From assembly GCF_009914755.1 (NCBI RefSeq), contig NC_060943.1: DNA of 64,000 nt, one strand, 5' to 3'. This stretch comes from the human T2T-CHM13v2.0 reference genome, Homo sapiens. The notes below the pieces were generated by a model that had not been told where the DNA came from, did not search any database, and saw nothing but the letters and a program-made list of their open reading frames with translations. This document shows positions 4,056-61,224 of the stretch, piece by piece. How positions within the stretch are numbered: the first letter of the stretch is position 1; each line of letters opens with the position of its first letter. The translations under genes were made by a program, and so were the position numbers.

Positions 4056-8490
<4,435 letters not shown>

Positions 8491-25898: not shown

Positions 25899-26147
<249 letters not shown>

Positions 26148-28914: not shown

Positions 28915-29101
28915 GAAATGTAATCAATGCTAATCACCTTCAATGGATTCTATGGCCCTAAACCAATCATGTGGGGGCCCAGGGGACTGGAAGAGAGGCC
29001 TGGAGTCCCGGGGGTTCTCTATAAATAGACAGTTCAGCTCCAGAGCAGTTGGAGAGCACATCCTAGAAGAGAGGAGGCTGGAGGCAGAAGTCAGGAAGGA
29101 G
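28915..29101 (+). promoter_or_regulatory. ZSCAN5C: ZSCAN5C promoter and non-coding exon 1 (CCAAT 28963-28967; TATAAATA 29020-29027; donor GTAAGT at 29102)
   Basis: Inverted paralog of the ZSCAN5B/ZSCAN5A promoter. Confidence 0.75.
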
Positions 29102-32100
29102 GTAAGTGTCCACTGGGGATGTCTGTGGGGTTTTGGAGTTGGCCTGCAGGGGTTGGTTTCAGAAAGATTTGGATTGAGGGGTTGGTTTCAGAAAGATTTG
29201 GGTTGGGGTGTTGGTTTCAGAAAGATTTGGGTTTATTTTTTCATGCATTTGCCCGGACACCTTGTGAAGGCAGTGGGTCTGCTTTGCACCCTATTATTTA
29301 TTCTGACTTGTTATATAACTCTCCCTTAAAATAGGAATAATATTAACTTTCTCATCGTGGTTAGGCTACATTTTATTTTTTAGAGATGAGATCTCTCTCA
29401 TTGCCCAGACTAGACTGGAATTCCCGGACTCAAACGATCCGCCTGCCTCTGCTTCCCAAGTAGCAGGAACTACAGGCACTTGCCACCATGCCTGAATAAA
29501 TGTTTAATTTTTTTTGTACAGATGGGGTCTCAGTACATTGCCCAGGCTGGTCCTGAACTCCTGGGATCAAGCATGCTCCCATCTTGGTCTTCCAAACTGT
29601 TGGAATTACAGGTGTGAGCCACCTTGCTGGCCACACACCACTTGTTAAAAAGCATCGCTGGATTCTCCCTTTCCACAGGGTAAAATCAGCCATTGATGAA
29701 TGGGCATCAACCTACTAGGCCAATGAGAATCTGCACTAAGTGTCCCTACCTGGGGGTCCTGTGTGCTGTATACTCCCAGAATTGAATACTAACCCGCGTA
29801 CCTGCCTTTATTTTTTCCCATGTCCCATTGCTTGTTTTAATGGGAAATGAACTGACAGCGAATACAAAGTGGTTTCTAGGAACATGAACCCCTTTTTTTA
29901 GAGACAGGCTCTCACTATGTTGCCCAGGTGGTTGTCAAACTCCTGGGCTCGAGGGATCCTCCCTCCTCAGCCTCCTGAGCAGCAGCAGGTGCCCTGTGGC
30001 AAAATCATTTTTAATTCCAGAATTTCAGGCTGCCTTTTCTCTCTCATATCCATATGCTTTTTCAAAAAAAAAAATTTACTTTTAAATTGAAAAACAAGAA
30101 AGATACGTATTTATGGTGTACAGCATAATGTGCTTTGCAGGATAGAAACAATGTAAAATGGGTAAATTGAGCTGATATTCACATGCCTTACTTTATGGAC
30201 TAATCATTTTTGGTCATGAGGATGCTTAAAGTCTACTCTTTAAGCAATTTCCAATTATACAATACATTGTTATGAACTGAAGTCACCATGTTGGACAATT
30301 GCTCTCTTGAACTGATCTCTTCAACTGAAATTCATACCCTTAAACCTATATCTCCCCAACCCTCACCATAGCCCTGTTAACCACCATTCTACTCACTGCT
30401 ACTATGAGTCTACTGGGAATTTTTTTTTTTTTTTTTTTTTTTTTGGTGACAGAGTTTTGCTCTTGTTGCCCAGGCTGGAGTGCAATGGCGCGATCTCTGT
30501 TCACCACAACCTCTGGCTCCCGGGTTGAAGTGATTCTCCTGCCTCAGCTTCCCAAGTAGCTGGGATTACAGGCATGTGCCACCAAGCCTGGCTAATTTTG
30601 TATTTTTAGTACAGACGGGGTTTCTCCATGTTGGTCAGGCTGGTCTTGAACTCCCGACCTCAGGTGATCCGCCCATCTCAGCCGTCCAACGTGCTGGGAT
30701 TACAGGCGTGAGCCACCACACTCAGCCTGAGTCCACTAGGTTTTTAATTATTGTTTACATTACCTACTTCTTTTATTTTAAAAACTATTTTATAATTTCA
30801 AGTTTTATTTTAAATTTGGGGTGTACCTGTGCAGATGTGTTACATGAGTATATTGAGTGATGCTGAGGTTTGAGGTATGACTCTACCCATCACCCAGGAT
30901 GTGAGGATAGCAACCAATAGGTAGTTTTTCAACCCTCCCTCCCTCTATCCCTCCAGAGTTTCACTGTTTTGGAGTCCACGTCCTGATTTCCTTTCCTCTG
31001 TGTACCTGCCCCAGAGCGGGATTGCCGGCTCATGCAGTTGTTGGACTTTCAATTTTCTGAGGAGCTTCTATACTGTCTCCCATATCGGCTGCTCTAATTT
31101 ACATCCCAGCACAGGGCGCAGAGGACCCCTTTCCCCCGAATCCTCACCAACACTCGTTCCATGTGTCTTTTTGGGAACAGCCACTCTAGCAGGCGTGAGG
31201 GGTGCCTTGTGGTTTGGATTTGCATGTCCCTGATGATGAGTGATGACGAGCACCTTTTCCTAGACCTGCTGGCCATTCACATGTCTTCATCTGAGATGTC
31301 CACACGGGCGCCTTAAGCCCCTCTAGTGGGTTGTTTTCTCGCTCTGGAGGAGTTTGAGTTGCTTATGTTTTGCACAGGAGCCCCGTGAGATGTGTGGTGT
31401 GTAAATATTGTCTCCTCCTCTGGGTTGTCTCCCGCCTCTGCCGATTGTCTCCCTGGCTGTCTCTCTGTTCTGCACTTGCTCAAAGTCCTTCCAGGAAGTG
31501 TGGGGCACTCGCCCTCCAGGCTACCAGTGACTTTTCCCAAGACCCTCCTGCCAGTTTTTTCTCCCCTCTGCAGACCTTCAGGTTGCTTCCCCCACCTGTG
31601 TCTAGGAAAGCAGGGCTGTGTTCTCATAGCTGTTGAACTTGGGTGATAATTGATGCCTGGAGAGTATTACTCAGTGGCTCTTGCCTAATGAAGCTAGGTT
31701 TAGGAATTAATTTTTAAAAATCTTATTATTGTATCAACCCACTTCTTTAAAATATCAAAGAGCACTAGACTTTAAATCCATTTTCTGAGATGAGATTAGG
31801 AATAGAGAAACCCTTAGAGACAGAAGGTAGATTAGTGATTGCCAGGGGCTGGGGTGGGTGGGCAGGCGGTGATCACTGATGAGGATGGGGTTCCTTTTAG
31901 GGTGATGAGATAATTCTGGAGCTAGAAACTAGACAGTGGTAATGGTTGCACAACATGGTGCATGTCTTAGTCCCATGAAATTGTTCACCTGAAGAGGGTA
32001 AAAATGATGAAATTATGAATGTGCATTTCACCAAAATAACAAAATATCTGTGTAGGAGCTTAATCCTCATAGGATTCTTTAGTGCTGTCCCTTCTCTGGA

Positions 32101-32692
32101 GCGAATAATTCTGGGATTAAGAGGGTTTGTTGTGGGACAATATCTTACGTTGTAACTATTTTTATTTGTCTTATTGCATAATTATGACTAAGGATTTGCC
32201 TTGGATCTTATCTTGATAAGAAAACATAAAGAATTGACATGATTGTTATATCAGATTTTAGGCGCTTCACATTCCTGTCCTATTTTATTTACAGTCAAAA
32301 ACAATGTTGTTCGATGGGCAGGAAAACCAATTCAGCCTTTGCACAATGATCCCCTAGAGATCAGAATCCAGGGGAGTATTCAGATTTTACTCCAGAACAT
32401 GTGGTCAGGTGTAGACACTGGAAGAATAACAGAGTGGATTGATTTCCACGGTGCTGAGTCCAATGCTAGAGGGGAAGTGGGGTCTGGGATTGGGATGAGG
32501 GATTTGGAAGGATGGGGTGGGTAGAGTAGAAACTTTAACAGAGCTCATGCTTTTTTTCCCTGCAGACTTCTGAATGAACAGTGAATCTATTACTGAGAAA
32601 AACCAGGGGTGGCCTGTGTATATAGGTCGCAATTAGACACCGGCTTCTGGAAGAGCTTTCCCAGAGACAGATTGAAATATTCCCCAGTAGAC

Positions 32693-33076
32693 ATGGCTGC
32701 AAATTGCACATCCTCATGGAGTCTAGGAGAATCCTGCAACAGCCCTGGGTCAGAGCCACCACAGTCCATGCCATCCCCAGCAACTCAACTTGGAAATCAT
32801 GACAGTGATCCTGAGACTTGTCACGTGAACTTCAGGATGTTCAGCTGCCCGAAGGAGTCGGACCCCATCCAGGCTCTGAGGAAACTCACTGAGCTGTGCC
32901 ATCTGTGGCTGAGGCCCGACCTCCACACCAAAGAGCAGATCCTGGACATGCTGGTGATGGAGCAGTTCATGATCTCCATGCCCCAGGAGCTCCAGGTCTT
33001 AGTCATGATGAACGGTGTGCAGAGCTGCAAAGACCTGGAGGACCTGCTACGAAATAACAGAAGACCCAAGAAATGG
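32693..33076 (+). CDS. ZSCAN5C: ZSCAN5C first coding exon, SCAN domain (exon starts at about 32566)
   Basis: [25 protein letters not shown]...SCAN...RRPKKW|GTGAGT; 384 nt. Confidence 0.93.
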
Positions 33077-33837
33077 GTGAGTGGGACCCTCGTGATTGGT
33101 GCAGGGAAGGGGAGCTGGGATGGGGGCTGCATGGTGCAGCTGGACTCGAGAGGACCCGAGGGGCTGCTCTAGGTCAGGGCTTCCAAGTAGAGGAGAGTTT
33201 GCCCATCAGGGACACATGGCAGTGTCTGGGGACAGTTTTTATTGTCACAAGGGGGAGGACAGGAGACGCTGCTAAGCATTCTCCAAAGCTCAGGACAACC
33301 CATCATGACAAATAATCTTCCAGATTCCAATATCAGCTGTGCTGAGACGGCAAGTTCCTGGTGTAGGAGATGGACAGGCAGAGGGGGTACAGGGACCCAC
33401 ACACTGTGTGAGGCCAACATGAAAGAAAGACATTGGTGAAATATTAGGCCTGATGGAATGTAGGGAAGGAGGCATTAGAGTGAACTGAAGGGGGGCCCAG
33501 AAATACCATCCTGAGGCAGGGAAAGTGGCTGGTATCAGAGATTCAGGGATCTGCCTCCAGGTCCGCACATGAGCCCGCCATCAGCCAATTGAGTTGGATT
33601 CACCCAGAATATTTCTCCCTCTTTTCTCTTTGGTTTAGAGACCCTTTCATCTAAAGGACTCATATTTATATACTTATCTAGAAAAGAAAAAAGTTCACAC
33701 AGAGCTGATTCTGCATCGGGAAGGCAGATTTGAACATTAATTACAGTAAAGTGTGAGCATTATGGCAGGACCCAGGGAATATGAGAGCTACTTTCAGGTT
33801 CTCATAGTTAGTCTGATTGCTTTTTTTCTCTCTATAG

Positions 33838-34041
33838 TCTGTAGTCAGTTTTCTTGGCAAGGAATATCTTATGCAGGAATCAGATGTGGAGATGGCTGAA
33901 GCCCCCGCCAGTGTCAGAGATGATCCGAGACACGTGTCCAGCCAGCGGACCTCCTCTGTGAACCAGATGTGTCCGGAGGAAGGCCAGGCCAGCCAAGAGC
34001 TGCAGACCCTGCCCAGGGTCCCTGCACTGTTCAGGAGGCAG
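33838..34041 (+). CDS. ZSCAN5C: ZSCAN5C coding exon 2 (204 nt)
   Basis: [23 protein letters not shown]...LFRRQ; TATAG acceptor, GTGGGT donor. Confidence 0.9.
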
Positions 34042-34812
34042 GTGGGTGTGTGAGGCCTTGGTGTCTGGGCAGAGGTGGGAGAAGGAACGGGAGGAAATCG
34101 TGTGGCCACTGGACTGATTGAGAGATTTGGCACAGGACAAGATTACAGCCATTCCCCATGGACATGGTACATCCCCAAACATTCATTCCTGAGCCATCAC
34201 AGAGAGGGAAGCTTCATCTACTTTTCTCTCCACCATGAGAGCTTTTAGCATGTAGGGTGGGGGGTAAGAAATGGTCTCGGTGAAATAACGGAGGCAGTTG
34301 GCACAGATGAATGAACTGAAGGTCCCATCCCCATCCAGTTTCCTCAAAGACATTTAATGTAATAATTCAGCAGGGAACTCACCTCCTACAGATTGTCAAT
34401 TTCTTAATTTGAGGAGTGTTTCTCAACTGGGGTGATTCTGCCTTTCCGGACACATGGCCATGTCTAGAGACATTTTTGTTGTCATTGTAGGGGGTGGTGG
34501 GGTGTTGATAGCATCTAGAGGGTGGAGGCGGGGTCTCTGCTCTGCACAGGAGCGCCCCCTCCAGGAGGGTGATGCAGCCCCAATGCCAGTGGTGCCAGGG
34601 GTTAGGGGCCTCCACCTAGAGTCATGCTCCTTCCAGCGTCAGGGGCAAGGAGATGCTGGCACAGCGGGGAGAAATATGCCCAGAGAACCAAACAGTGAAA
34701 ACCACCACACCTGTGTCATTAGAAGAGTTGGTGCATCCAGTCAGGAAAAAGCAGACATGTCCTTCCACCGGTTTAGGCATGGCAGTCATTGCTGTTGGTT
34801 TTCCATTCTCAG

Positions 34813-34963
34813 GAAGAGGACTTCCTGCTGCCAGAGACTACTGTCATGAAAGGTGACCCAAAGGCTCTGAGACCCAAGCCGACCTTGGAGAAGGACCTGG
34901 AGGAAGACAGGGAGGAGAACCCAGGACTTACATCCCCAGAGCCTCAGCTTCCAAACAGTCCCA
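34813..34963 (+). CDS. ZSCAN5C: ZSCAN5C coding exon 3 (151 nt)
   Basis: [50 protein letters not shown]; AG/GTAAGT. Confidence 0.9.
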
Positions 34964-35227
34964 GTAAGTATGAAGACTTACACCTGTGTGGAGATAGCCC
35001 CTCTCTTCTGGGGTGTGGGGCTGGGGTCCCAGCATTATCATGTCTGGGGGAGTTGGCACTCAGCTGCCAAAGCCTCTCCATCCCTTACTCTCCAGAGACC
35101 TACAGTCCAATGTCTTAGGTTTAAGGTTGAGGGGAAGTTGTCAGCCAACATCAGTGTTTGGTTGCAATGAGTTTGGTGTATTGAAAATGCACCTTATTAA
35201 CTGTGTGTGTGGAATCCCTTCTTCCAG

Positions 35228-35979
35228 CAGGGGTGGTGGGAGCAAAGGAGGGGAAGGAACCCCAAAAAAGAGCCTCTGTGGAAAATGTGGATGCTGACAC
35301 ACCTTCTGCCTGCGTTGTGGAGAGAGAAGCTTCGACTCACAGCGGGAGCAGAGGAGACGCTCTGAATCTGAGAGGTCTCAAAAGAAGCAAACCAGACGCC
35401 ACCTCCATTTCCCAAGAAGAGCCTCAAGGAGAAGCCACACCTGTGGGCAACAGAGAATCCCCGGGACAAGCTGAGATCAATCCAGTTCATTCCCCAGGCC
35501 CTGCGGGCCCAGTCAGTCACCCCAGTGGCCAAGAAGTCAAGGAACTGCTGCCCTTTGCATGTGAGGTGTGCGGCAAGAGGTTTAAGTATCGCGGCAAGTT
35601 AGCCGTCCACACGAGATCACACACAGGCGAGAGACTCTTTCAGTGTAATCTCTGCGGGAAGCGCTTCATGCAGCGCATAGGCCTGCAATTTCACCAGCGA
35701 ACCCACACTGGCGAGAGGCCCTACACGTGTGACATCTGCCAGAAGCAGTTCACCCAGAAGTCCTACTTGAAGTGTCACAAGAGAAGCCACACAGGGGAGA
35801 AGCCCTTCGAATGTAAAGACTGCAAGAAAGTTTTCACCTACAAGGCAAATCTGAAGGAGCACCAGCGCATCCACTCTGGAGAGAAACCCCACAAATGTTC
35901 CAAGTGTCCAAGAGCCTTCGGTCGGCCGGCGACCTTAAGACGCCACCAGAAAACACATCGAGAAGCCACTTCACAGTGA
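35228..35979 (+). CDS. ZSCAN5C: ZSCAN5C last coding exon, five C2H2 fingers (CAGCAG acceptor; alternative start 35231); 496-aa ORF intact
   Basis: Five C2H2 motifs ending REATSQ*; AATAAA at 36210-36215. Confidence 0.93.
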
Positions 35980-37315
35980 CTTCACCATCGGGTCTGTCTT
36001 CTGCACCAAGAAAGTGTGAATGAAGATTTTTCACCGATGTTGTCAGATGACGTTTGACAGATGAAGGGCGCCTGGCACGCAGAGGAGTGCCCTAGATAGG
36101 AATTCCTAGGATGTTTGTTTAAATCTTTTTCCTCCCCGGGGGAATTTTGGTTTTTGTTTCATTATTTCTATTGTTTTAGGTTTATTTTGGTTTGTGTTGC
36201 TGTTCTTTCAATAAACATCTTATTAGTTTTCAATATTTTGTAACAAAAAACAGTCTCCTGATTGACATGCTGTTGTTATGCACTGTTTTGCTATAAAGTA
36301 CAATTGTCCAAGGAGGGTGTCCGGATTAAATACACGATATGCCTCGGGAAATCTGGGTTTCAGATAAACGTTTTTTGTTTTTTTAGTATCAGCTTGTTCT
36401 AAATTATTCATTATTTATCTGAAACTCAGCTTTTATTAGGTATCCTAAATAGTTTTCTTTTTTATTTTTTTTTCTATTCTTTTTTTTGAGATGGGGTCTC
36501 CCTCTGTCAACCAGGCTGGATTGCAGTAGCAGGATCATCGCCCACTGCAGCCTCGACCTTCCAGGCTCAGGCAGTCCTTCCGTCTAAGCCTCCCAAGTAG
36601 CTGGGACTACAGGATCATACCACCACTTCGGCCAATTTTTGTGTTTTTTTGTGGAGATGAAGATTTGCCTTGTTGCCCAGGCTGGTCTTGAACTCAGAAG
36701 TACAAGTGGTCCAACTGCCTCAGCCTCCTTAAGTGCTGGCATTACAGGCATGAGCCGCTGTGCCCTGTATTGTTTTTATTAGACTTTATTATAATTATGA
36801 TATTCAAATTTTTGGAAATAATTTTTTGTAGTGATGGGATTTTTTGTTGCCCAGGCTGGTGTGGGGTGAGCCACCACGCCTGGCTAACGACTTTCTTTTT
36901 CAGAGCTGTCTTAGGTTCACAGGGAAATTCAGTGGACAGCGCAGAGTCCCCGTAGACTCCCACCCCACACAGCACAGCCCCTCCCCGCCCAGCATCCCCA
37001 GCAGAGCGGTGCACCTGTTCCATCAGTGAGCCTGCCTGGACATATCACCACCACCCAGAGTCCATGGTGTTCATTAGGGCTCGCTCTGGGTGTTGTACAT
37101 CCTGTGGGTTTGGACAAAGGCCTCATGAGTACCCACCACTGGAGTATTGTGGGGGGGGTATTTTCACTGCCCCCCCCGAATCCTCTCTGCTCTGCCTATT
37201 TATCTCCCCGCCCCAGATGGTGTATTTTGTGGCCTAAATTTGGCAACCTCTAAATTCCTGATTTGACTCTTGAACTACGGAGGCATTGGGAGTCTCTGGT
37301 GACTAGTTGGTCTTA

Positions 37316-37777
<462 letters not shown>

Positions 37778-38529
37778 CTACTGTCCCCACACCATTTCCT
37801 CTATTATTTTTTGTTTGTTTGTTTGTTTGTTTGTTTTGAGATGGAGTCTCACTCAGTCACCCAGGCTGGATTGCAGAGGCACGATCTTGGCTCACTGCAA
37901 CTTCCACCTCCTGTGTTCAAGCGATTCTCCTACCTCAGCCTCCCATGTACTGGGACTACAGGCATGTGCCACCACACCCAGCTAATTTTTGTATTTTTTT
38001 AGTAGAGATGCGGTTTCACCACGTTACCCAAGCTGGTCTCGAATTCCTGACCTCAAGTCATCCGCCCATCTGGGCCTCCCAAAGAGCTGGGATTACAGGT
38101 GTGAGCCACTGCGCCTGGCCTCCCCTATTGTTAACATGGTACGTTAGTATGGCACATTTGCCACAAGCGATGAACTGACTGGATATATTGCCGTGATCTA
38201 AGGCCCATACCTTATTGAGGCCTCCTTAGTGTTTACACAATGACCTCCTCTTCCTTCCTCCCCATCCAGGATGCCACATTGCCTTGAGTTGTCACGTCTC
38301 CCTAGGATCCTCTTGGTGACAATTTCTTAGATTTTACTTGTTTGGGATCACCTGAGAATGTGCATTTTAGGTGGTGCTGATGCTGCTGGTCTTGGGAGAA
38401 CATTTTATGGATGAGCTGACAGGCAGAGTCCTGCAGTCTGCAGAGGTCTGGAAAGGTCCCTTCCCGAATAGGCTGGATTCATTTATTAAAGGCCACTTTT
38501 GTAAGACTTTGGTTCTTGTCATCTTAATT

Positions 38530-39066
38530 TAAAGGAAATTTATCAAGAGACACACAGCAAAGAGATGCATCATAGAGTAACTATTGCAAAGGAAATAGAG
38601 TATTTTGAAAGTTAAGGGCAGAATAGACAGGACATCCTGGGAGCAAGGATTCAGGGCCAACTGCTCCTAAGGATGAGACAGCAAAGACCCGCTAGAGGGA
38701 GACTCCCCTTTATGGGAGTCTCGGATCATTACACAAGGGGGTGGGAAGAGGTGTTACTAGTAAGCATGTTCTGGGTGGTCCCCTGGGCACACAGGTGCAG
38801 TAGCTGTGCACACGTCTCTTTAGCATCTTAAGTCTCCACCCAGGGGTGTGTTTTTTACTATTATAACGAGCAAAGGGTCAGTTTGTGAACAGGTAAAATC
38901 ACAATGCTCATGTTCTCTACAGGGAAAACTCCCTTTTGTAGATGGTTTTGTGTGAATGAACTCAATTAGAAAGTGAAGGCTGGGGCTGATTGTGTTGGCT
39001 GTACGGTCCCCATGGGTGCTGCGTTTGGAGGACATGGTCACCTTCTTGACTACCTATCCTGACTCA
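38530..39066 (-). mobile_element. ERV1-class solo LTR; inverted paralog at about 45871-46430 (+)
   Basis: The plus-strand copy begins TGAGGCAGGATAGGCAGTCAAGGAAATGACC and has CCCATAAAGGGGAGTCTCCC, typical of MER-type ERV1 LTRs; subfamily not determined. Confidence 0.6.
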
Positions 39067-40530
39067 CCCAGGTCCATTTAGGAGAAAGAGTCCTTGAGGT
39101 AGAAACCTGAATCCGCCATCAAATGTACACAGACTCCCGTTTAATTCAAGAAGTGGATGTTTGGTGGGTAGTGGTTCTCCATTTAGATATTGGGTCCAAC
39201 ATCCTTCTCCAGACACAGAAAATGTGTTGATGATACCACCTGCCCACTTAATTTAAATCATGTTTCTCTATGATCCATTAACCACATCCGACATTTCTTT
39301 AGAGCTTCATTTCCCAATTTTCCTACATGTTGGACTCACTTGAGGTGTTTTTTCAATATTTTTTTAAAAAGCAATGCCTGGGGTCCAGCCCCAAGGTAAT
39401 GATGTGATTGGTTGAGGATGTGGCCCCTGTGTTGAGAGTTTATAAAACTCCTCAGGTGATCAAATGTGTGGCTGAGTCTGGCAGGTCGGTTTTCTGATTG
39501 TCTGGTCACTCCAATTCCTGTTCTCTCATGGGGATCAGTGAGTTCATTTCCACGGAGAGTCATGCACCTCCATTCCCAGTCTAAAGAAGGTAGACTCCAC
39601 AGCTGGCTCCCACCCACCCTGCACGGGGGTCCCTCCCACTGTGGCTGGCTACATGCACCACTCCAGGGACTGCCCCTCATGGCTCTGGGCACATGTGGCA
39701 CTGGGTGGCCTTTGCACTGCTGCTCCTTATCCACCTATGTGCTCTGAGCCAAGAGCTTGATTTACCTGATGTGACAATGAAAACAGGATACCCACTGCAA
39801 CCTCAAAAAAGCCCAGTGCGGCTGGGCGCAGTGGCTCATGCCTGTAATCCTAGTATTTTGGGAGGCCGAGGTGGGTGGATCACCTGAGGTCAGGAGTTTG
39901 AGACCAGACTGGCCAACATGGTGAAACCCCATTTCTACTAAAAATAAAAATTAGCTGAGCATGGTGGTGCACGCCTGTAATCCCAGCATTGCATTCCAGC
40001 CTCGGTGACAGGGCAAGACTCAGTCTCAAAAAAAGCGCCATGCTAGGGATGACTGAATTGAATTTAGAAGGTGCCCTTGCTTTCAGAAAAACAACAACCC
40101 AACACTGCTTAATCTACCCAACCCGGAGCCAAATCTGCACCAACCAACCACCTGGCCCACCTGGTGGCTTTTCAGACTCTGACCTTGACGATGGGACATG
40201 AGGTGGGGAAGGAGGTGGAAGCACAGCTAGGGAAGAAGGGGCAAGAGACCCACTCCCCTGGCATGATCCCTGGGGTCTTGGAGGCTGGGCCGGTCAACAT
40301 GGCTGCAGTTATTTCTAGCTTTCTGGATTCCCAGAAAAAAACAGCTGTACTTCAAAGAAAATGCAGAACAAGGTGAGGTCGACGTGGAAAATCATCCCAA
40401 CATCAGCCAAACGGAACTGGGCTCTGCTATCCGAGTGCACTCAGGCCAAACACCCACGTGAAGCTTTTACAGTGAGAGAAAGGAAGACATTTATTTGCAG
40501 GGCACCAAGCAAGGAGAATCGGGCAGCTAA

Positions 40531-40752
<222 letters not shown>

Positions 40753-41345
40753 TAAATTTATAAAGTTAATATTGATAATGACAGACAGAAAATAATGCCT
40801 TCTCTAAGAATGTGTGACCAACCACCATCCTTCCCTCATGGGGATGTGGAGTTTCCCTTGTCTTGGATGCCTAACAGAGCTGTCAATCACCACACATCCT
40901 AGACCGACCACATCTTTCCCCACCTCACGTAAGGGTGGCTCCAGCCCCCTTGATGTGCAATCCACAAGATTTGTGGGGTTATCCTTGATTCCTGCATTTC
41001 CCTCACATGACACACTCAGTCTCTCAACAAATCCTATACCTTAATTAATGTGTTTACTGACATGAATTTCACGCGACATAAAATTAACTGTTTTATCTGT
41101 ACAGTTTAGTGGCATTTGGTGCATTTACACTGCTGTGCGGCAGCTCCTCTAGCTGGTTCCTGTGCCTGCATGTCCAGAGTCCAAGTTCTGACATTTGTAC
41201 ATACTCATGAAGTCATTGCCGTCATCAAGAAGCTGAACATCCCCACCATCCTCCAACGCTTCCCCAGGCTCTTCATCATCTGTCCCTCCCACAACTCCAT
41301 CCCTGGACAACCACTGGTGTTCTCTGTGTCATTACAGATCACTGA

Positions 41346-42213: not shown

Positions 42214-43348
42214 TGAGCCACCATGCCTGGCCAGGATTTTCTTAAAACTTAAAAACAAATTCAGCATTTGACCAGTTCTCCCCATTTCAACTTTCAGTAT
42301 TCATGGTCAAGCCAACAGCCATCAACCTGGATGACTCTGTTGCCATCCTCACTGAGCTCCTGGTTCCTTCCCTTCCCCTATATGGGCTGTTATCTTTTTT
42401 CTCTTTTTTCTTATTTTGTTCTTTTTTTTTTTTTTTTTTTGAGACAGGGTCTTGCTCTGTCACCCAGGCTTGAGTGCAGTGACACAATCATAATGCCCTG
42501 CAGCCTCAACCTCTCAGGCTCAAACAATCCTCCCACCTCAGCCTCCCCAGTACCTGAGACTACAGGTGTGCACAACCAGGCCTTACAATTTTTTTTTTTT
42601 TGTATATTTTGTAGAGATGGGGTTTCATCATGTTGCCCAGGCTGGTCTTTAACTCCTGAACCCAAGCTATCCACCTGCCTCAGCTTCTCACAGTGCTGAG
42701 ATTACAGGCATGAGCCACCGCGGTTGGCTGTATGGGCTATTTTCAAGGCATCTTCTGAGAAAACGCTAAAGAGAAGTCAGAAAGCTACTCTATGAAGGCA
42801 GAGGCATTCGTTGGAGCTCTGAGTGATGTACCTGCAATGTCTAGATTCTAGTTTTAGGAGTCGGCAGAGTCAGCCCAATTCTATGTGTCAGACCAATTCA
42901 ATGACTGAAATAGTGGCAGCTCCACCTACTAGTACAATGGGTCAAGTTTTCACATTTCACTTGTTCCTACAGGATGGGGCCTGGCAGGCTTGAGTTGAGA
43001 TTTATGCTTGTTTCTATGTAGCTTTGGATCGTTGTGAAAGCCAGGTCATTTCAATCATTTTGTGCAAACATCATTGTGTGTAAAAACGGTGTCCACGTTT
43101 TGTCTTTGAAATGGTCCCCGCCCTCCGCTCGTTATCGTGTTGAGAATGAAATGAGAGGACATGCTTGGCACCTGGAGATGATTGGATATTACAGCTGTGC
43201 GCCATAAGGGCAAATGGTTCCATTGTTTGATGAGCCGTCCTGGCGGTGGGTGGGTCGGTCACTTCTAAACAGATAAGGAATGGCTAGAAAGCTCTTGTAC
43301 CAAACCAGCTTGAAGCAACCTCACCCACACCGAATCCCTCCACGTTTC

Positions 43349-43366
43349 TTTTCTTTTTTCTTTCTT

Positions 43367-43397
<31 letters not shown>

Positions 43398-43681
43398 GAG
43401 ATAGAGTCTCGCTCTGTCGCCCGGGCTGGAGGGCCGTGGTGCGACCTCGGGTCACTGCAAGCTCCGCCCCCCGGGTTCAAGCAATTCTCCTGCCTCAGCC
43501 TCCGGAGTAGCCGGGATTACAGGCACCCGCCACCATGCCCGGCTAATTTGTGTATTTTAGTAGAGACAGGGAGGGTTTCACTGTATTGTCCAGGCTGGTC
43601 TTGAACTCCTGAGCTCAGGCAATGCGCCCGCCTCGGCCTCCCAAAGTGATAGGATTACGGGCGTGAGCCACCGTGCCCAGC
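43349..43681 (-). mobile_element. Alu flanked by target-site duplications, absent from the paralogous site at about 60380
   Basis: Poly(T) at 43349-43398 then an antisense Alu body; TSD copies at 43332-43348 and 43682-43698. Confidence 0.9.
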
Positions 43682-43698
43682 AAATCCGTCTACTTTTC

Positions 43699-44792
43699 TT
43701 TTTTCTTTCTTTCTTTCTTTTCTTTCTTTTCTCCCAACCCCCCTCCCCCCGTCAAACAACCAACAGTTTTTTAACACAGAAAGTAAGGCATAATCCAGGG
43801 CTTGGACTGTCTTTCAAGAAAACCCCAAACCCGCTGCCAGGAAGTCACAGCCACTAAGTCCCATCCCAGGCCCAGTTGCTGCCAGGAAACACACCGCGTG
43901 GAGACCCAGCATGACTGCTGACTGATTGCAAGTCCCCAGGAGGGCTTTATTTTTGCTTTTCAACATCCTGTTCTGCAGGTTCCTTGGCTCTTTTTGCCCG
44001 TATGCCGAAGAGCCAGGCATTGGGACGGGCCATGCGGAGACTAGCGAAGGCTTTGAAATTCTTCTCCTCGATGATGACTCCAGCTTTCTCCTTCTAGGCA
44101 TTCCGGTTGGGCATGACCGGTCCTGTCAGCCGAGCGGCCAGTTTCAGTTCTTCAGCAGAACTGTCTCCCTTCTCGGAGGCCGAGGGCTTCCCGGGGAAGC
44201 GGATGCGTTTGGAGCGGGGCTCCTTCAGCCGCCGCACGTTGGCCTGCAGGGACTGCGCCTCCTCGGATCCGCAGAAATGCCGGCGTCCGGGCCCCCTTCT
44301 TCGCGTGCCGGCCACCCTGAGCTCCTCCAGGCGGAGGCCGCGGCCGTGCGCACCTTCGTGTGGTACCGAACCGTGGGGCAGCGCACGATGGGCCGGATGG
44401 GCCCCGACGCGGGGCAGGGGCGAGGCGGCGCGCCTTGGCTTGCCCGGCCTGGCGCCTGCGGATCTTCTGGGCCGGCTGGTTGAACCGCTTGGCCACGCGC
44501 CGCTGCAGTCCTTGGGGAAGCGGGGCTTCGAGATCGTGCCGTTCCGGCTGGGCGCCGTGGCTGCCTACGGCCCTGCGGCTGCAGACCAGAGGGGAGCCAC
44601 CGAGGGGAAGGTCCCTGCGCGCGCGCACCCCATCCCCGGCCTCCGCCTCTAACCTCCCAGCCTGGGCCGGAGGCCGCCCCTAGAGCCCGGGCCCCGGTCC
44701 AATGCTGTCTGCGAAGAAGGGGCCCATCCATGCCCGCGTTGGCGGCAGCGCCAGGCCGATGGCGCTGGATGGAGCCCGAAGGCCGAGACCCC
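43699..44792 (-). pseudogene. RPL13: Processed pseudogene of ribosomal protein L13 (CDS homolog 43947-44558), CpG-island-like
   Basis: Intronless minus-strand frames give [49 protein letters not shown] and [11 protein letters not shown]...[19 protein letters not shown], matching RPL13; start ATG is ACG; frameshifts; degenerate poly(A) at 43699-43730; flanking TSDs. Confidence 0.95.
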
Positions 44793-45124
44793 AAATCCCT
44801 CTGCTTTTCTAAGAAATCGCCCTCCAGTCTTTTTTTTTTTTTCAGATCTGTAACTTGTTTTCACCCCTGATTTAAAACAATACCACTGTTCTCCCCCAAA
44901 TTTTCCTTTGATACAGTAGGTGAACAAAATAGATTTTTTTCCCCACAAATATCAGCAGACACTTCTTGGCACCCCACACTGTATTGGCATGGGTGTTAAC
45001 AGTCCCAGTTCAGGTGTGCAGCCTTTCAGGTGGATGCACTGTAACAAGGATGTAAATGCGGAGCCATCCTAAGAATCACATTCAGTCATGGGGTTGCCCT
45101 TCCAAGCTGGCAGAAAAGGAACCC

Positions 45125-45478
<354 letters not shown>

Positions 45479-47662
45479 TCACCTGCGGAGTTTTATAAAC
45501 TCTCAACACAGGGGCCACATCCTCAGCCAATCACATCATTACCTTAGGGCTGGACCCCAGGCATTGCTTTTAAAAAAAATATTAAAAACTCCTCAAGTGA
45601 CTCCAACATGTAGCCAAATTAGAAAATGAAGCTCTAAAGAAACATTGGATGTCATTAATGGATCATAGAGCACCATGATTGAAATTAAACGGGCAGGTGG
45701 TATTATCAACACATTTTCTACGTCTGTGAAGAAGGTTGGACCCAATCACCAAAAGGGAGAACCACCACCCACCCCTACCTCCACTTCTTGAATGAAAGGG
45801 GAGTCTATGTACATTTTATGGTGGATTCCAGGTCCCTGCCTCAAAGAATGCTACTCCGAAACGGACCTGGGTGAGGCAGGATAGGCAGTCAAGGAAATGA
45901 CCACGTCCTCAGGATGCTGCACGCGTGGTGACTGTACAGTCAACACAGTAAGCCTCAGCGTTCACATTGGAATTGAGTTCATTCAAGCAAGGCCATCTCC
46001 AGTAGGGTATTTCCACTGTAGTATTTCCACTGTAGAGAGAATGTGCACGTTGATCTTACCCATCCACAAACCGACACATTTCTTGTTATGATAGTAAAAA
46101 ACACACACCTGGGCGGGCAGTTAAGACGCTAATGAGACATGTGCACAGCTACTGCACCTGTGTGCCCAGAAGAGCACCCAGAATATGCTTAGTAGTAACA
46201 CCTCTTCCCACCCCGCTAGGTGTAATCATCCAAGACTCCCATAAAGGGGAGTCTCCCTCAAGCAGGTCTTTGCTGTCTCATCCTTGGGAGCAGCTGGCCC
46301 TGAATCCTTGCTCCCAGGATGTCCTGTCTATTCTGCCCTTAACTTTCAAGATATTGTATTTCCTCTGTAATCAATTATTCTATGATGCATCTCTCTGCTG
46401 TGGGTCTCTTGATTAAATTCCTTTAAATTAAGATGACAAGAACCAAAGTCTTACAAAAGTAGTCTTTAATAAATGAATCCAGCCTATTTGGGAAGGGACC
46501 TTTCCAGACCTCTGCAGATTGCAGGACTCTGCCCGTCAGCTCAATCAGCCATCCATAAAATGTCCTCCCAAGACCAGCAGCATGAGCACCACCTAAAATG
46601 TACATTCTCAGGTAATCCCAAACAAGTAAAATCTGAGAAATTGTCACCAAGAGGATCCTAGGGAGACGTGACAACTCAAGGCAATGTGGTGTCTTGGATG
46701 GGGAGGAAGGAAGAGGAGGGCATTGTGTAAACACTAAGGAGGCCTCAATAAGGTATGGGCCTTAGATCACGGCAATATATCCAGTCAGTTCATCGCTCCA
46801 GTCAGTTCAAAGGTGCCATCCTAATGAACCATGTTGGCAATGGGGGAAGCCATGTGGGGCATTAGGGAGCTCCATGGACTTTAGAAAGCTATTCTAAAAT
46901 GAATTATATATTTTAATGCACACTCTCAGGCCCCATGCCCGGTCTGCTCAATCAGAAGCTGAGTCTGGGGCCCACCCACCTGAGGATTAACCACGCCTTC
47001 AGGGGATGGTAGTATCACTAAGACCAACTAGTCACCAGAGACTCCCAATGCCTCTGTAGTTCAAGAGTCAAATCGGGAATTTAGAGGTTGCCAAATTTAG
47101 GCCACAAAATACACCATCTGGGGCAGGGAGATAAATATGCAGAGCAGAGAGGATTCCGGGGGCAGTGAAAATACCCCCCAGGATACTCCAGTGGTGTGTA
47201 CTCATGAGGCCTTTGTCCAAACCCACAGCACGTACAACACCCAGAGCGAGCCCTAATGAACACTATGGACTCTGGGTGGTGGTGATATGTCCAGGCAGCC
47301 TCACTGATGGAACAGGTGCACCACTCTGCTGGGGATGCTGGGCAGGGAGAGGCTGTGTTGTGTGAGGAGGGAGTCTAGGGGAACTCTGTGCTGTCCACTG
47401 AATTTCCCTGTGAACCTAAACAGCTCTGAAAAAGAAAGTCTAGAGCCAGGCGTGGTGGCTCACCCCACACCAGCCTGGGCAACAAGAAATCCCATCACTA
47501 CAAAAAATTATTTCAAAAATTTGAATATCATAATTATAATAAAGTCTAATAAAAACAATACAGGGCACAGCGGCTCATGCCTGTAATGCCAGCACTTAAG
47601 GAGGCCGAGGCAGTTGGATCACTTGTACTTCGGAGTTCAAGACCAGCCTGGGCAACATATCA

Positions 47663-55030: not shown

Positions 55031-55215
55031 CTCCTTCCCGGCTTCTGCCTCCGACCTTCTCGGTCTGGGATGCGCTCTCCAACCGGCCTGGAGCTGAACT
55101 GCGTCTATTTATGGAGAAGCGGGACTCCAGGCCGCGTTTCCGGTTCCCTGCGCCGCCCCGTGATTGGTTTAGGGCCATAGAGTCCATTTTACGTAATCGG
55201 CGTTGATTATGGTTC
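55031..55215 (-). promoter_or_regulatory. ZSCAN5A: ZSCAN5A proximal promoter and non-coding exon (donor after 55031; CATAAATA 55106-55113; CCAAT 55163-55167)
   Basis: Almost identical to the ZSCAN5B promoter at 24513-24700; further upstream first exons may lie outside the window. Confidence 0.75.
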
Positions 55216-58047: not shown

Positions 58048-59338
58048 TCACTCATATGTCAAATTATTAGATTTAGCATTGCACATTGTATATATGTATC
58101 AAAACATTATGTTGTACACCAAAAATGTGTATGTACCATTTTTATTTGTAAATTTATAAAGTTAATAATAATAATGACAAAAAGAAAATAATGCCTTCTC
58201 TAAGAATGCGTGACCAACCACCATCCTTCCCTCATGGGAATGTGGAGTTTCCCTTGTCTTGGATGCCTAACAGACCTGTCAATCACCACACATCCCAGAC
58301 CTACCACATCTTTCCCCACCTCACGTAAAGGTGGCTCCAGCCCCCTTGATGTGCAATCCACAAGATTTGTGGGGTTATCCTTGATTCCTGCATTTCCCTC
58401 ACATGACACACTCAGTCTCTCAACAAATCCTATACCTTAATTAATGTGTTTATTGACATGAATTTCACGTGACATAAAATTAACTGTTTTATCTGTACAG
58501 TTTAGCGGCATTTGGTGCATTTACACTGCTGTGCAGCAGCTCCTCTAGCAGGTTCCTGTGCCTGCATGTCCAGAGTCCAAGTTCTGACATTTGTACATAC
58601 TCATGAAGTCATTGCCGTCATCAAGAAGCTGAACATCCCCACCATCCTCCAACGCTTCCCCAGGCTCTTCATCATCTGTCCCTCCCACAGCTCCATCCCT
58701 GGACAACCACTGGTGTTCTCTGTGTCATTACAGATCACGGACAGAATTTTCTTTTTTCTTTCTTTTTTTCTTTTCTTTTTTTTTTTTTTTTTTTGAGACA
58801 GTGTCTTGCTCTGTTGCCCAGGCTGCAGTGCAGTGGTATGATCACGGCTCACTGCAGCCTCAACTTCTCAGCCTTAAGTGAACCTCCTACCTCAGCCCCC
58901 CCAGGTGGCTGGGACCACTATGTCCGGCTAATTTTTTCTACTTTTTGTAGAGATGGGTCTCACTACATTGCCTAGGCTGATCTTGAACTCCTGGGCTCAA
59001 GCAATCCACCTGCTTTTGCCTCCCAAAGTGCTGAGATTACATGTGTCAGCCACTGTGCCCAGCCTAGTAATAGAATTTTCTAGAATTTTATATTGATAGA
59101 ATCATACCAGATGCACTTTTTTTCTGGCTGTCCCCTTTCACCTTCGTAACTATTTTGAGATTCATCCATGTTCTTGGGTGTTATCAATGATTTCTTTTTA
59201 CTGCTGAGTAGTATTCCAAACTTTATTAAATTGGGCCCTTTGGATATGAGTTATTTATTTTATATCAACTGTACCTCAATAAGACCATGAAAAAAAAAGA
59301 GGATTCTCTTAAAACTTGAAAACAAGTTCAGAATCTGA

Positions 59339-59737
<399 letters not shown>

Positions 59738-61224
59738 TAGGATTACAGGCATCAGCCATCATGTCTGACTATATGGGCTTATTTCCAAGACTTTATTCCA
59801 AAAAAAATGTTAAACAGAAGTCAGAAAGCTACTCTATGAAGGCAGAGGCATTCGTTGGAGCTCTGAGTGATGTACCTGCAATGTCTAGATTCTAATTTTA
59901 GGAGTTGGCAGTGTCAACCCAATTCTGTCTCAACACTATTCAATGACTCAAATAATGGCAGCTCCACCTACTAGTACAATGGGTCAAGTTTTTACATTTC
60001 ACATGTGCCTACAGGATGGGGCCTGGCAGGCTTGAGATGAGACTTCTGCTTGTTTCTATTTAGCTTCAGACTGTTGAGAAAGTCAGGTCATGGCATTCAT
60101 TTAGTCCAAACATCATTGTCTATAAAAACGGTGTCCACGTTTTGTCTTTGAAATGGTCCCCGCCCTCCGCTCGTTATCGTGTTGAGAATGAAATGAGAGG
60201 ACATGCTTGGCACCTGGAGATGATTGGATATTACAGCTGTGCACCATAAGGGCAAATGGTTCCATTGTTTGATGAGCCATCCTGGCGGTGGGTGGATCAT
60301 TCACTTCTAAACAGATAAGGAATGGCTAGAAAGTTCTTGTACCAAACCAACTTGAAGCAACCTCACCCACACCGAATCCTATACTTTTCTATGAAATCAC
60401 CTTTTTTTTTTTTTTGGAGATCTCCAACTTTTTTTCACAGCTGCTTAAAAAAAAATACTACTGTTCACCCCAGACTTTCTTTTGATACACTAAGTAAACA
60501 AAACAGATTTTTTTTTTTTGCCATAAATATCAGCAGACACTTCCTGGCACCCCACACTGTATCAGCATGTGTGTTAACAGTCCCAGTTCAGATGTGCAGT
60601 GTTTCAAGTGGATGCACTGTAACAAGGATGCAAATGCGGAGCCACCCTCAGAATAACATTCAGTCATGGGGTTGCCCTTCCAAGCTGGCAGAAAAGGAAC
60701 CCGGGCCAGGCACCGTGAGCACGCACAGTAACTCACGCCTGTAATCCCAGCACTCTAGAAGGCTGAGGCAGGAGGATTTCTTGAGACCAGGAATTTGAGA
60801 CCAGCCTGGGCAACATAGTGAGACCCAACTCTACAAATAAGAGATTGTGTGTCCGGAGGCTGAACTCACAAAGATTTCAGAATGTCAGTAGGAGAGGAGG
60901 TGTGTGGGATAGCAGCCAATTCCTCAGTGAATGAGGCAGAGAAATTGGTAAAAAGAAGGAAAGTGAAAACAAGAAGCATGTTCCCATCTTCAAGGTCTTC
61001 CTGGTTCACAAAGTGGGAAGGAAGAAACTACTGAAGAGGAAAGAGTTCTCTTGAAGAGTACAGAATTCCTGGGCTCCCCGGTTCAGGTCATAAAAAGAAA
61101 AGAGAAAACGTTTGCAGCCATGCAGGGTGAACAAGCTCTGAAGATATATTATACGGACTAGGGGTTGTAATCAATGTTAGGGACCATCCCCTACTTCTGA
61201 TGGCTCTGAGGCAGGAGAATAGGG

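What the first reader, a model, noticed from the sequence alone, without database searches (positions are those of the whole stretch)
43699..44809. RPL13 retrocopy that gained CpGs and became a CpG island inside the ZSCAN5C/ZSCAN5A inverted-repeat spacer
Processed pseudogenes normally lose CpG through methyl-C deamination. Compared with the recalled RPL13 mRNA, the differences here look mostly A/T to G/C and create CpGs: ATG GCG to ACG GCG, AATGGCATG to AACGGCACG, TTGAAG to TCGAAG, CCCCACTTC to CCCCGCTTC, GTGCAGCGG to GTGCGGCGG, CCCAGGAAG to CCCGGGAAG. Meanwhile frameshifts destroy the protein. The neighbouring Alu (43349-43681) shows the same bias (CCCAGG to CCCGGG, TAGCTGGG to TAGCCGGG, TTACAGG to TTACGGG). 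Inference: the site is unmethylated in the germline and/or subject to strong GC-biased gene conversion. It is a candidate new regulatory island (promoter, DMR or recombination hotspot) born from a dead retrocopy, analogous to the retrocopy-derived imprinted CpG island in RB1 intron 2.
Basis: partly seen in the sequence, partly recalled or inferred. Interest (0 to 1): 0.8.

Follow-up and report, generated by a model that had tools for sequence, protein, structure and literature searches.

The report
RPL13 retrocopy kept as CpG island
A dead copy of the ribosomal protein gene RPL13 carried part of its parent's CpG island into a zinc-finger gene cluster and, unlike its sister copies, has gained G/C bases and CpGs instead of losing them, probably through a known recombination-linked bias.

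Summary
RPL13P13 (minus strand, insert about 43700-44792, with 18-nt target-site duplications) matches the parent RPL13 from inside intron 1, through spliced exons 2-6, into a long 3'UTR. So it was born a CpG island: the parent stretch has 85 CpGs and the copy has 86.

Compared with 13 sister retrocopies over exons 2-6, it kept 41 of 54 parental CpGs and gained 21 (sisters gained 1-7). Weak-to-strong (W>S) changes number 36 against 17 strong-to-weak (S>W); the pooled sisters show 262 against 897 (p=1e-11). Equilibrium GC is 0.78 against 0.21-0.43. GpC gains rise as well (17), so the bias favours GC in general and is not specific to CpG.

The bias peaks in the exon 2-4 part. It reaches the later-inserted Alu and about 0.2-0.6 kb of unique flank, but not an insert-free paralogue 16 kb away.

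Best reading (0.55): an inherited island, probably unmethylated in the germline, subject to local GC-biased gene conversion. This is a member of known island classes. A promoter, imprinting or other regulatory role is untested. Methylation, recombination maps and primate orthologues could not be examined.

The parts
43332..43368 (.). Left copy of the Alu's long target-site duplication. It repeats the retrocopy's left duplication plus the first part of the retrocopy tail.
   Evidence: Direct-repeat family D1 and the sequence itself. The T/C-rich part is absent from the empty-site paralogue, so the Alu inserted after the retrocopy. That order is an inference.
43369..43681 (-). Alu element, inserted later. 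The T-run tail is 43369-43398 and the body 43399-43681. It shows GC-biased change.
   Evidence: 13 of 23 consensus CpGs kept, 5 gained, W>S 11 against S>W 15. This is the highest W>S share of 52 Alus.
43682..43699 (.). Left target-site duplication of the retrocopy (AAATCCGTCTACTTTTCT).
   Evidence: 16 of 18 bases identical to 44793-44810. A single copy is present at the empty site.
43700..43752 (-). Degenerate poly(A) tail of the retrocopy, now an A/G-rich tract on the minus strand.
43753..44099 (-). Part derived from exon 6, including about 175 nt of 3'UTR beyond the canonical RPL13 poly(A) site.
   Evidence: 91.1% identity to the parent. W>S:S>W is 4:4 up to the canonical end and 6:9 beyond it.
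44100..44156 (-). Part derived from exon 5.
   Evidence: 87.7% identity. W>S:S>W is 2:4.
44157..44315 (-). Part derived from exon 4, the strongest GC-biased segment. It carries frame-breaking indels.
   Evidence: W>S 15, S>W 4, 86.6% identity.
44316..44455 (-). Part derived from exon 3.
   Evidence: W>S 8, S>W 2, and two 1-nt deletions.
44456..44578 (-). Part derived from exon 2, with the start codon changed from ATG to ACG.
   Evidence: W>S 7, S>W 3, and one 1-nt deletion.
44579..44792 (-). Retained RPL13 intron 1. It starts about 11 nt after the exon 1 donor site and is part of the parent's CpG island.
   Evidence: a contiguous 342-nt match at 85% running from L021 2275 to 2614; 76% identity over the intron part, which cannot be polarised.
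44793..44810 (.). Right target-site duplication of the retrocopy (AAATCCCTCTGCTTTTCT).
60375..60390 (.). Empty (pre-insertion) site in a direct paralogue of the flanks. It holds one copy of the target sequence, with no Alu and no RPL13 sequence.
   Evidence: 42700-43337 matches 59741-60379, and 44788-45261 matches 60369-60840.

Best explanation
RPL13P13 is an L1-type processed copy of an unusual RPL13 transcript that kept intron 1 and had a long 3'UTR. It inserted into the spacer of the ZSCAN5C/ZSCAN5A inverted repeat after the early-anthropoid ZSCAN5 duplications.

Its 5' two-thirds are the transcribed part of the parent's CpG island, so it arrived as a ready-made island of about 1 kb (GC about 0.63, CpG o/e about 0.8).

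Shown: since insertion, its substitutions have been strongly GC-biased in a domain of about 2 kb centred on the exon 2-4 part. W>S fixations are raised about two-fold and S>W fixations are lowered. CpG losses are balanced by CpG gains.

Inferred: the dense CpG block stayed largely unmethylated in the germline, which gives low deamination. Either as an open island or simply as a local hotspot, it underwent repeated meiotic recombination in ancestral anthropoids. GC-biased gene conversion then drove AT>GC changes to fixation, at a long-term B of about 2-3 by the standard model. New CpGs survived because they were not methylated.
For: Anatomy. Introns 2-5 are absent and intron 1 is contiguous with exon 2. 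There are 18-nt target-site duplications and an empty-site paralogue.

Born an island. The parent's colinear stretch is 1070 nt with 85 CpG and o/e 0.80. P13 is 1041 nt with 86 CpG and o/e 0.78.

GC bias.
- W>S:S>W is 36:17 against 262:897 in the 13 sisters, 30:7 after polarisation, and 24:10 under the strict filter.
- GC* is 0.78 (0.88 in exons 2-4), against 0.21-0.43 in the sisters.
- The bias is not limited to CpG. The per-site W>S transition rate is 0.108, against 0.047-0.065 in the three sisters with similar transversion rates. The non-CpG S>W transition rate is 0.020 against 0.030-0.049.
- GpC gains number 17, against 5-6 in sisters of similar age, and 65 of 68 GpCs are kept.

Low CpG decay. 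41 of 54 parental CpGs are kept, against 1-25 kept in the 10 more diverged sisters covered over most of their length. Alus in the window mostly keep 2-11 of about 23. CpG o/e in exons 2-4 is 0.95.

Local and tied to the insert.
- The bias is 30:9 in exons 2-4 and 12:17 in exon 5 through the 3'UTR.
- The Alu that inserted later into the tail has the top W>S share of 52 Alus.
- In the near unique flanks the P13 side has S where the paralogue has W at 52 sites, against 23 the other way (p=0.001; non-CpG 43:23, CpG 9:0). In the far flanks the counts are 87:82.

Literature.
- Island classes with hypodeamination or BGC regimes: passages of PMC8286816 and PMC4121359.
- Hypomethylated islands act as PRDM9-independent hotspots in most mammals: PMC11161765, abstract and section 8.
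- Punctuated ancestral gBGC occurred just downstream of human transcription start sites: PMC13712754, abstract and section 12.
Against: - No methylation, recombination or polymorphism data could be consulted, so both mechanistic steps are inferred.
- CpGs still decay faster than GpCs: 13 of 54 lost against 3 of 68.
- The ratio of CpG to non-CpG S>W transition rates is 3.6, no lower than in the sisters (2.2-8.0). Hypomethylation is therefore not shown by that test. gBGC at B about 2 could by itself explain most of the CpG retention.
- PMC11161765 reports a deficit of recombination at conserved hypomethylated loci on the human branch. Any island-linked gBGC would have to be ancestral.
- The PRDM9 13-mer pattern has only one degenerate hit, in the tail.
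- The flank comparison is unpolarised. The one polarised stretch, the right flank with a chr3 outgroup, is weak: 12:9 against 6:8.
- Counts are small: 8 GC-neutral transversions serve as the clock.
- The B estimate mixes methylation and conversion effects.
- The intron 1 part cannot be polarised (18:17).
Confidence: 0.55

Rival explanations
1. A methylated BGC island. An ordinary PRDM9-directed or subtelomeric recombination hotspot happened to sit here. GC-biased gene conversion alone both created and preserved the CpGs, the island is methylated in the germline, and the retrocopy's own CpG density played no causal part.
For: S>W is lowered at CpG and non-CpG sites alike, and the CpG to non-CpG rate ratio (3.6) is like that of the sisters. 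CpGs are still lost about six times more often than GpCs. GpC gains equal CpG gains. By the coordinates supplied with the finding, the window lies in the distal part of chr19q. BGC islands and CpG-gain clusters are reported to be enriched near telomeres: passages of PMC3469460.
Against: The insert-free paralogue 16 kb away, in the same chromosomal setting, lacks the bias. The far flanks are symmetric at 87:82. The bias peaks on the inherited island core. CpG o/e of 0.95 in exons 2-4 is hard to hold under full methylation. PRDM9 hotspots are described as short-lived (PMC11161765), yet the bias acted both before and after the Alu insertion.
Confidence: 0.2
2. Hypomethylation only. The inherited island escaped germline methylation, so CpGs were simply not lost. 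No recombination-linked bias is needed.
For: 41 of 54 parental CpGs are retained. [quoted passage not shown] This fits the 13 of 23 CpGs kept in the adjacent Alu and the 9:0 CpG asymmetry in the near flanks.
Against: It cannot raise W>S. The W>S transition rate is about twice that of peers. There are 21 CpG and 17 GpC gains. GC* is 0.78. The non-CpG flank asymmetry is 43:23.
Confidence: 0.1
3. A selected regulatory island. CpG and GC content has been maintained and increased by selection because the island works as a promoter, a germline DMR or imprint, or a Polycomb/CFP1 platform inside ZSCAN5B intron 1, in the manner of PPP1R26P1/CpG85 in RB1.
For: By the supplied gene table it is an intronic, same-strand retrocopy island in ZSCAN5B. 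16 of 26 W>S transitions fall in TG/CA contexts that create CpG, against 32% expected from site counts (p=0.002). Retrocopy islands can be imprinted promoters (PMC4537222, abstract in the search listing; PMC4509998 discussion).
Against: The supplied table has no exon, transcript or RefSeq functional element here. GpC gains are as raised as CpG gains, so the rise is not CpG-specific. The bias spills into an Alu and unique flanks. Published analyses attribute island CpG density and GC content near transcription start sites mainly to non-adaptive forces (passages of PMC8286816; PMC13712754 section 12). There are 0 papers on RPL13P13.
Confidence: 0.1
4. An artefact. The apparent gains come from misalignment around indels, from changes on the parent lineage, or from gene conversion by the parent gene.
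For: The exon 4 stretch near parent positions 3138-3165 is poorly aligned and carries 4 of the 21 gains. About 10 of the 61 differences are really parent-lineage changes.
Against: The strict filter (no indel within 6 nt, at most 2 other mismatches) still gives 24:10, with 15 CpG-making changes. Polarisation strengthens the bias to 30:7. Conversion by the parent cannot create non-parental CpGs.
Confidence: 0.03

Closest known systems
Evolutionary classes of primate CpG islands (hypodeaminated, BGC, exonic, pseudo) of Cohen, Kenigsberg and Tanay 2011. Known here only through passages of PMC8286816 and PMC4121359; the original was not read.
   Same: An island maintained by non-selective substitution regimes. 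It shows the W>S excess of BGC islands and the low CpG loss of hypodeaminated islands.
   Different: It combines both signatures. BGC islands are described as highly methylated with rapid deamination, whereas here CpG loss is low and o/e is 0.95 in the core. Its origin is datable: a retrocopy with an empty-site paralogue.
Retrotransposed CpG islands with 'sloping shores' (Grandi et al. 2015, PMC4509998; abstract and passages read).
   Same: An L1-mobilised CpG-dense sequence makes a new island. The adjacent Alu and near flanks keep or gain CpGs, as a hypomethylated shore would.
   Different: That work measured methylation of a GFP transgene and genome-wide methylomes. Here only the long-term substitution footprint is seen, and it includes non-CpG W>S change that a shore effect does not explain.
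CpG beacon clusters (Bell et al. 2012, PMC3469460; passages read).
   Same: Local clusters of lineage-specific CpG gain that overlap BGC regions, are often distal on chromosomes, and are often hypomethylated in sperm. The GpC control used here is theirs.
   Different: Beacons are human-specific gains scored against chimpanzee and macaque. Here the gains are scored against a parent gene over the whole life of the copy. CpG gains (21) do not outweigh GpC gains (17).
PRDM9-independent hotspots at hypomethylated islands (Joseph et al. 2024, PMC11161765) and ancestral TSS-associated gBGC (Qiu et al. 2026, PMC13712754). Abstracts and one section of each were read.
   Same: High GC* centred on an island, about 1-2 kb wide and long-lived.
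   Different: Both papers report little such activity on the recent human branch. Activity at this particular locus is not shown by any map.
PPP1R26P1/CpG85 in RB1 intron 2 (PMC4537222; abstract in the search listing only).
   Same: An island derived from a processed pseudogene inside an intron of a host gene.
   Different: No evidence here for parent-of-origin methylation or for an alternative transcript.
Retrocopies that inherit parental promoter or 5' sequence (Carelli et al. 2016, PMC4772013, passages read; Okamura and Nakai 2008, PMC2386082, listing only).
   Same: The copied RNA included parental non-exonic 5' island sequence.
   Different: The copy starts about 43 nt downstream of the parental start site. 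It therefore lacks the core promoter, and no transcription is documented.

Membership tests
L1-mediated processed pseudogene | Parental introns removed | tested here: met
   Introns 2-5 are absent. Intron 1 is retained from parent position about 2274, which is atypical.
L1-mediated processed pseudogene | 3' poly(A) remnant and flanking target-site duplications | tested here: met
   A/G-rich tail at 43700-43752. The 18-nt duplications are 16/18 identical. A single target copy sits at the empty site 60375-60390.
L1-mediated processed pseudogene | Disabled reading frame | tested here: met
   ATG changed to ACG, with frame-breaking deletions in exons 2, 3 and 4. No RPL13-length ORF is present.
CpG island (sequence criteria, recalled: length over 500, GC at least 0.55, o/e at least 0.65) | Length, GC content and CpG o/e | tested here: met
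   43971-44880: 910 nt, GC 0.66, o/e 0.85.
BGC island (Cohen 2011 class, as summarised in PMC8286816) | Excess of W>S substitution | tested here: met
   36:17 against 262:897. GC* 0.78.
BGC island (Cohen 2011 class, as summarised in PMC8286816) | High germline methylation with rapid deamination | tested here: inconclusive
   The CpG transition rate is 0.073 per site, lower than in 12 of 13 sisters. The ratio to the non-CpG rate (3.6) is not lower. Methylation itself cannot be tested here.
Hypodeaminated (unmethylated) island | Low CpG>TpG loss | tested here: met
   8 of 54 CpGs lost by transition and 41 kept. Typical Alus in the window keep 2-11 of about 23.
Hypodeaminated (unmethylated) island | Unmethylated in the germline, with H3K4me3 | not testable with these tools
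   No methylome or chromatin data are reachable.
Imprinted retrocopy DMR (RB1/PPP1R26P1 type) | Retrocopy-derived island within a host-gene intron | tested here: met
   By the supplied gene table the island lies within the ZSCAN5B span 16471-55080, between exons at 19454-19964 and 55031-55080. Both are on the minus strand.
Imprinted retrocopy DMR (RB1/PPP1R26P1 type) | Parent-of-origin methylation and an alternative transcript from the island | not testable with these tools
   The supplied table lists no exon in 43699-44809. No methylation data are available.
PRDM9-directed hotspot | Match to the 13-mer CCNCCNTNNCCNC (motif recalled from memory) | tested here: inconclusive
   One low-complexity hit at 43738-43750 in the tail. 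The window has 7 hits against 3.05 expected.

The most novel reading that the evidence does not exclude
The insertion itself created the hotspot. Dropping a ready-made, CpG-dense piece of a housekeeping gene's island into neutral DNA nucleated a long-lived, PRDM9-independent recombination and gene-conversion focus in anthropoid ancestors. That focus then fed the island with new CpGs and spread GC into its shores, forming a self-sustaining loop. The insert-free paralogue 16 kb away serves as a built-in control for the causal direction, island first and gBGC second. Such an island inside ZSCAN5B intron 1 could also be a germline-specific DMR or a cryptic promoter.
Probability: 0.3. Interest if true: 0.6.

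Novelty: new member of a known kind. Interest (0 to 1): 0.4.

Why it matters
Processed pseudogenes are the standard neutral yardstick for CpG decay. This one breaks the rule in a clean, quantifiable way. It has 13 sister copies and an insert-free paralogue as internal controls.

It is a compact natural experiment on two linked questions. The first is whether CpG-dense DNA placed in a new location keeps itself unmethylated. The second is whether such an island attracts recombination-linked GC bias. Both bear on how orphan CpG islands arise and persist.

It is also a caution for annotation. An orphan island in a gene cluster can be a non-adaptive by-product rather than a regulatory element.

Tried and rejected
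- Full-text search for RPL13P13 found 0 papers. A search on ZSCAN5B, ZSCAN5C and 'CpG island' gave nothing about this island.
- The Rfam scan of 42500-45600 found 0 families.
- ORFs of at least 60 aa in the region are out-of-frame, GC-rich readings, and none is an intact RPL13 frame.
- The PRDM9 13-mer search was uninformative.
- Polarising the right flank with a chr3 copy of the same low-copy repeat gave only weak counts, and a shifted alignment near 44873-44892 spoils part of it.
- A second genome search with the youngest sister returned the same 13 copies plus one very diverged copy (C8:20865228-20865801), which was not used.
- RNA editing of the source transcript was considered for the A>G changes. 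It was rejected because the gains are both T>C (7) and A>G (9) on the sense strand.
- Refreshment by conversion from the parent gene was rejected, because the gained CpGs are not parental.
- CpG-specific gain was rejected by the GpC control.
Full report
**Observation.** The stretch is the most CpG-dense part of the window. 43699-44809 has GC 0.637, 87 CpG and o/e 0.77, against o/e 0.35 for the whole window. The core 44150-44800 has GC 0.73 and o/e 0.85. A sliding scan merges 43971-44880 into the largest island-like segment, 910 nt with 84 CpG.

**Anatomy.**
- *Copies found.* A search of the same genome with the pseudogene found the parent RPL13 exon by exon on C16, plus 13 other retrocopies (20 rows). 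A second search with the youngest copy returned the same 13 and one very diverged copy that I did not use.
- *Parent structure.* I fetched the parent as L021. From the sister copies and splice sites I placed exon 1 at 2231-2262, intron 1 at 2263-2489, exon 2 at 2490-2613, exon 3 at 2777-2918, exon 4 at 3128-3301, exon 5 at 3885-3941, and exon 6 from 4434 with the canonical AATAAA at 4588.
- *Source transcript.* RPL13P13 differs from every sister. Its 5' end matches the parent contiguously from 2275, inside intron 1, to the end of exon 2 (342 nt, 85%). Introns 2-5 are spliced out, and the 3' end runs to about 4789, about 175 nt past the canonical poly(A) site. The source RNA was therefore an intron-1-retaining (or intron-1-initiated), long-3'UTR transcript.
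- *Segments in window coordinates.* Intron 1 is 44579-44792, exon 2 is 44456-44578, exon 3 is 44316-44455, exon 4 is 44157-44315, exon 5 is 44100-44156, exon 6 plus 3'UTR is 43753-44099, and the tail is 43700-43752.
- *Disablement.* The start codon is ACG, and exons 2-4 carry frame-breaking deletions.
- *Insertion site.* Eighteen-nt target-site duplications lie at 43682-43699 and 44793-44810.
- *Order of insertions.* A third, longer copy at 43332-43368 also contains T/C-rich tail sequence. I read it as the duplication made when the Alu (43369-43681) inserted into the retrocopy's tail, so the Alu is younger. This is an inference.
- *Inverted repeat.* The arms are 28577-39495 and 55539-45443, and the copy sits in the 5.9-kb spacer.
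- *Empty-site paralogue.* The flanks have a direct paralogue. 42700-43337 matches 59741-60379 and 44788-45261 matches 60369-60840, with a single target copy at 60375-60390 and neither Alu nor RPL13 sequence. This is an empty site.
- *Dating.* The paralogues differ by about 9-16%, similar to the ZSCAN5 arms. ZSCAN5A, C and D are reported to have arisen after the split from Galago and before New World monkeys (passages of PMC5340127). The insertion therefore probably dates to early anthropoids. This is an inference.

**Born an island.** The parental stretch colinear with the copy is 1070 nt, GC 0.632, 85 CpG, o/e 0.80. The copy is 1041 nt, GC 0.651, 86 CpG, o/e 0.78. In the exon 2-4 part the parent has 43 CpGs, the copy has 53 (o/e 0.95), and the sisters have 2-43. 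The title's 'became a CpG island' is not right. The copy arrived as one and, uniquely among its sisters, never decayed.

**Substitution spectrum (exons 2-6 up to the canonical end, 650 aligned bases).**
- *CpG retention and gain.* The copy differs from the parent at 9.4% of sites. It keeps 41 of 54 parental CpGs, loses 8 by transition and 5 otherwise, and has 21 new CpGs, 16 of them from TG or CA. The 13 sisters gained 1-7. The 10 more diverged sisters covered over most of their length kept 1-25.
- *W>S against S>W.* The copy shows 36:17. All 13 sisters are S>W-dominated, 262:897 pooled (Fisher p=1e-11).
- *Polarisation.* Using the sisters to polarise, 30 W>S and 7 S>W changes are firmly on the P13 lineage. 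About 10 differences are really parent-lineage changes.
- *Strict filter.* Dropping anything near an indel or in a mismatch cluster (21 of 61 differences dropped) still gives 24:10, with 15 CpG-making against 9 CpG-breaking changes. The pooled sisters give 126:427 and 29 against 268.
- *Per-site rates.* The W>S transition rate is 0.108, against 0.047-0.065 in the three sisters with similar transversion rates (L003, L004, L008). The non-CpG S>W transition rate is 0.020 against 0.030-0.049. The CpG transition rate is 0.073 against 0.105-0.318.
- *Equilibrium GC.* GC* is 0.78 (0.88 in exons 2-4), against 0.21-0.43 in the sisters and 0.33 pooled. By my arithmetic under the standard fixation model this corresponds to B of about 2-3. 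That is an overestimate if part of the S>W deficit is due to lack of methylation.
- *CpG context.* 16 of 26 W>S transitions lie in TG/CA contexts, against 32% expected from site counts (p=0.002).
- *GpC control.* The rise is not CpG-specific. There are 17 GpC gains, against 5-6 in sisters of similar age, and 65 of 68 GpCs are kept.

**Spatial extent.**
- The bias is 30:9 in the exon 2-4 part and 12:17 from exon 5 to the 3'UTR end. The intron-1 part gives 18:17 but cannot be polarised.
- The Alu in the tail keeps 13 of 23 consensus CpGs, has 5 new ones, and shows W>S:S>W 11:15. This is the highest W>S share of 52 Alus from the window and fetched loci (pooled others 250:1239, p=0.002). Eight of its 11 W>S changes are shared with at most 2 other Alus.
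- The Alu at 45146-45418 shows 1:15 and no gains.
- Against the empty-site paralogue, the near unique flanks (42701-43337 and 44794-45000) have S on the P13 side and W in the paralogue at 52 sites, against 23 the other way (p=0.001; non-CpG 43:23, p=0.02; CpG 9:0). The far flanks give 87:82.
- One partly polarised stretch of right flank is weak: 12:9 against 6:8.
- The domain is thus about 2 kb, centred on the inherited island core, and absent from the paralogue without the insert.

**Mechanism.**
- Pure escape from methylation explains the retention but not the raised W>S, the GpC gains or the non-CpG flank asymmetry.
- A generic GC-favouring fixation bias, meaning GC-biased gene conversion, explains all of these.
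- The near-unity o/e, the low CpG loss compared with Alus of similar or lesser age, and the 9:0 CpG asymmetry in the shores suggest low germline methylation as well.
- This combination matches published regimes. Islands have been classed as hypodeaminated or BGC-driven, with little selection on CpG density (passages of PMC8286816 and PMC4121359; the original Cohen 2011 paper was not read). [quoted passage not shown] CpG-gain clusters overlap BGC regions, and those co-located with islands are mostly hypomethylated in sperm (PMC3469460). Hypomethylated islands act as PRDM9-independent hotspots in most mammals, though with a deficit on the human branch (PMC11161765). Human start-site regions carry the trace of ancestral, punctuated gBGC (PMC13712754).
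- I therefore rate 'inherited island, probably hypomethylated, plus local gBGC' at 0.55. The rivals are a methylated BGC island unrelated to the insert at 0.2, hypomethylation alone at 0.1, a selected regulatory island at 0.1, and artefact at 0.03.

**What is not supported or not testable.**
- Nothing here shows promoter, DMR, imprint or present-day hotspot activity.
- The supplied gene table lists no exon or functional element in the interval. Rfam finds nothing. The ORFs are chance readings. The PRDM9 pattern is uninformative. No paper mentions RPL13P13.
- The CpG to non-CpG rate ratio (3.6) does not itself demonstrate hypomethylation, and CpGs are still lost more often than GpCs.
- Supplementary tables of the cited papers were not opened and might list this island.

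**Limits.** The analysis rests on one genome. Counts are small in several classes. The flank test is unpolarised. The sister copies sit in different genomic contexts. Alignment in exon 4 is poor; this is handled by the strict filter.

Noticed in passing
window 61825-63001: Tandem array of a 35-nt unit, 33.6 copies at 94% match. It overlaps the RefSeq enhancer 62053-63252 listed in the supplied table.
   Followed up: partly
window 40740-41300 vs 58136-58700: This block of the direct paralogues differs by only 3.2% (18 of 561), while the adjoining block differs by about 14% (87 of 602). This suggests more recent gene conversion between the paralogues.
   Followed up: no
window 45112-45418 vs 60690-60840: The Alu right of the retrocopy shares an odd first 60 nt or so, including a CACACAGTAA-type insertion, with an old Alu-like element at the same place in the paralogue. 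It then continues as a much younger-looking Alu. This looks like partial replacement or Alu-Alu conversion.
   Followed up: partly
window 25751-26090: An Alu at 25806-26077 inside another island-like segment keeps 14 of 23 consensus CpGs, has 4 new ones, and has the second-highest W>S share (5:11). It lies near the paralogous upstream regions of ZSCAN5B and ZSCAN5A.
   Followed up: no
L009 (C12:6893240-6893876): Another RPL13 retrocopy whose match to the parent begins 26 nt upstream of exon 2, inside intron 1. It may also come from an intron-1-containing transcript.
   Followed up: no
L021 4614-4789 (parent) / window 43753-43930: RPL13P13 records a distal RPL13 3' end about 175 nt past the canonical poly(A) site, with no obvious AATAAA nearby. 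None of the 13 sisters extends that far.
   Followed up: partly
window 44794-45125; L024 (C3:155934386-155934674); L025 (C5:180486106-180486352): The right flank of the retrocopy is a low-copy repeat with only two other detectable copies in the genome, at 85% and 71% identity. Its family was not identified.
   Followed up: partly
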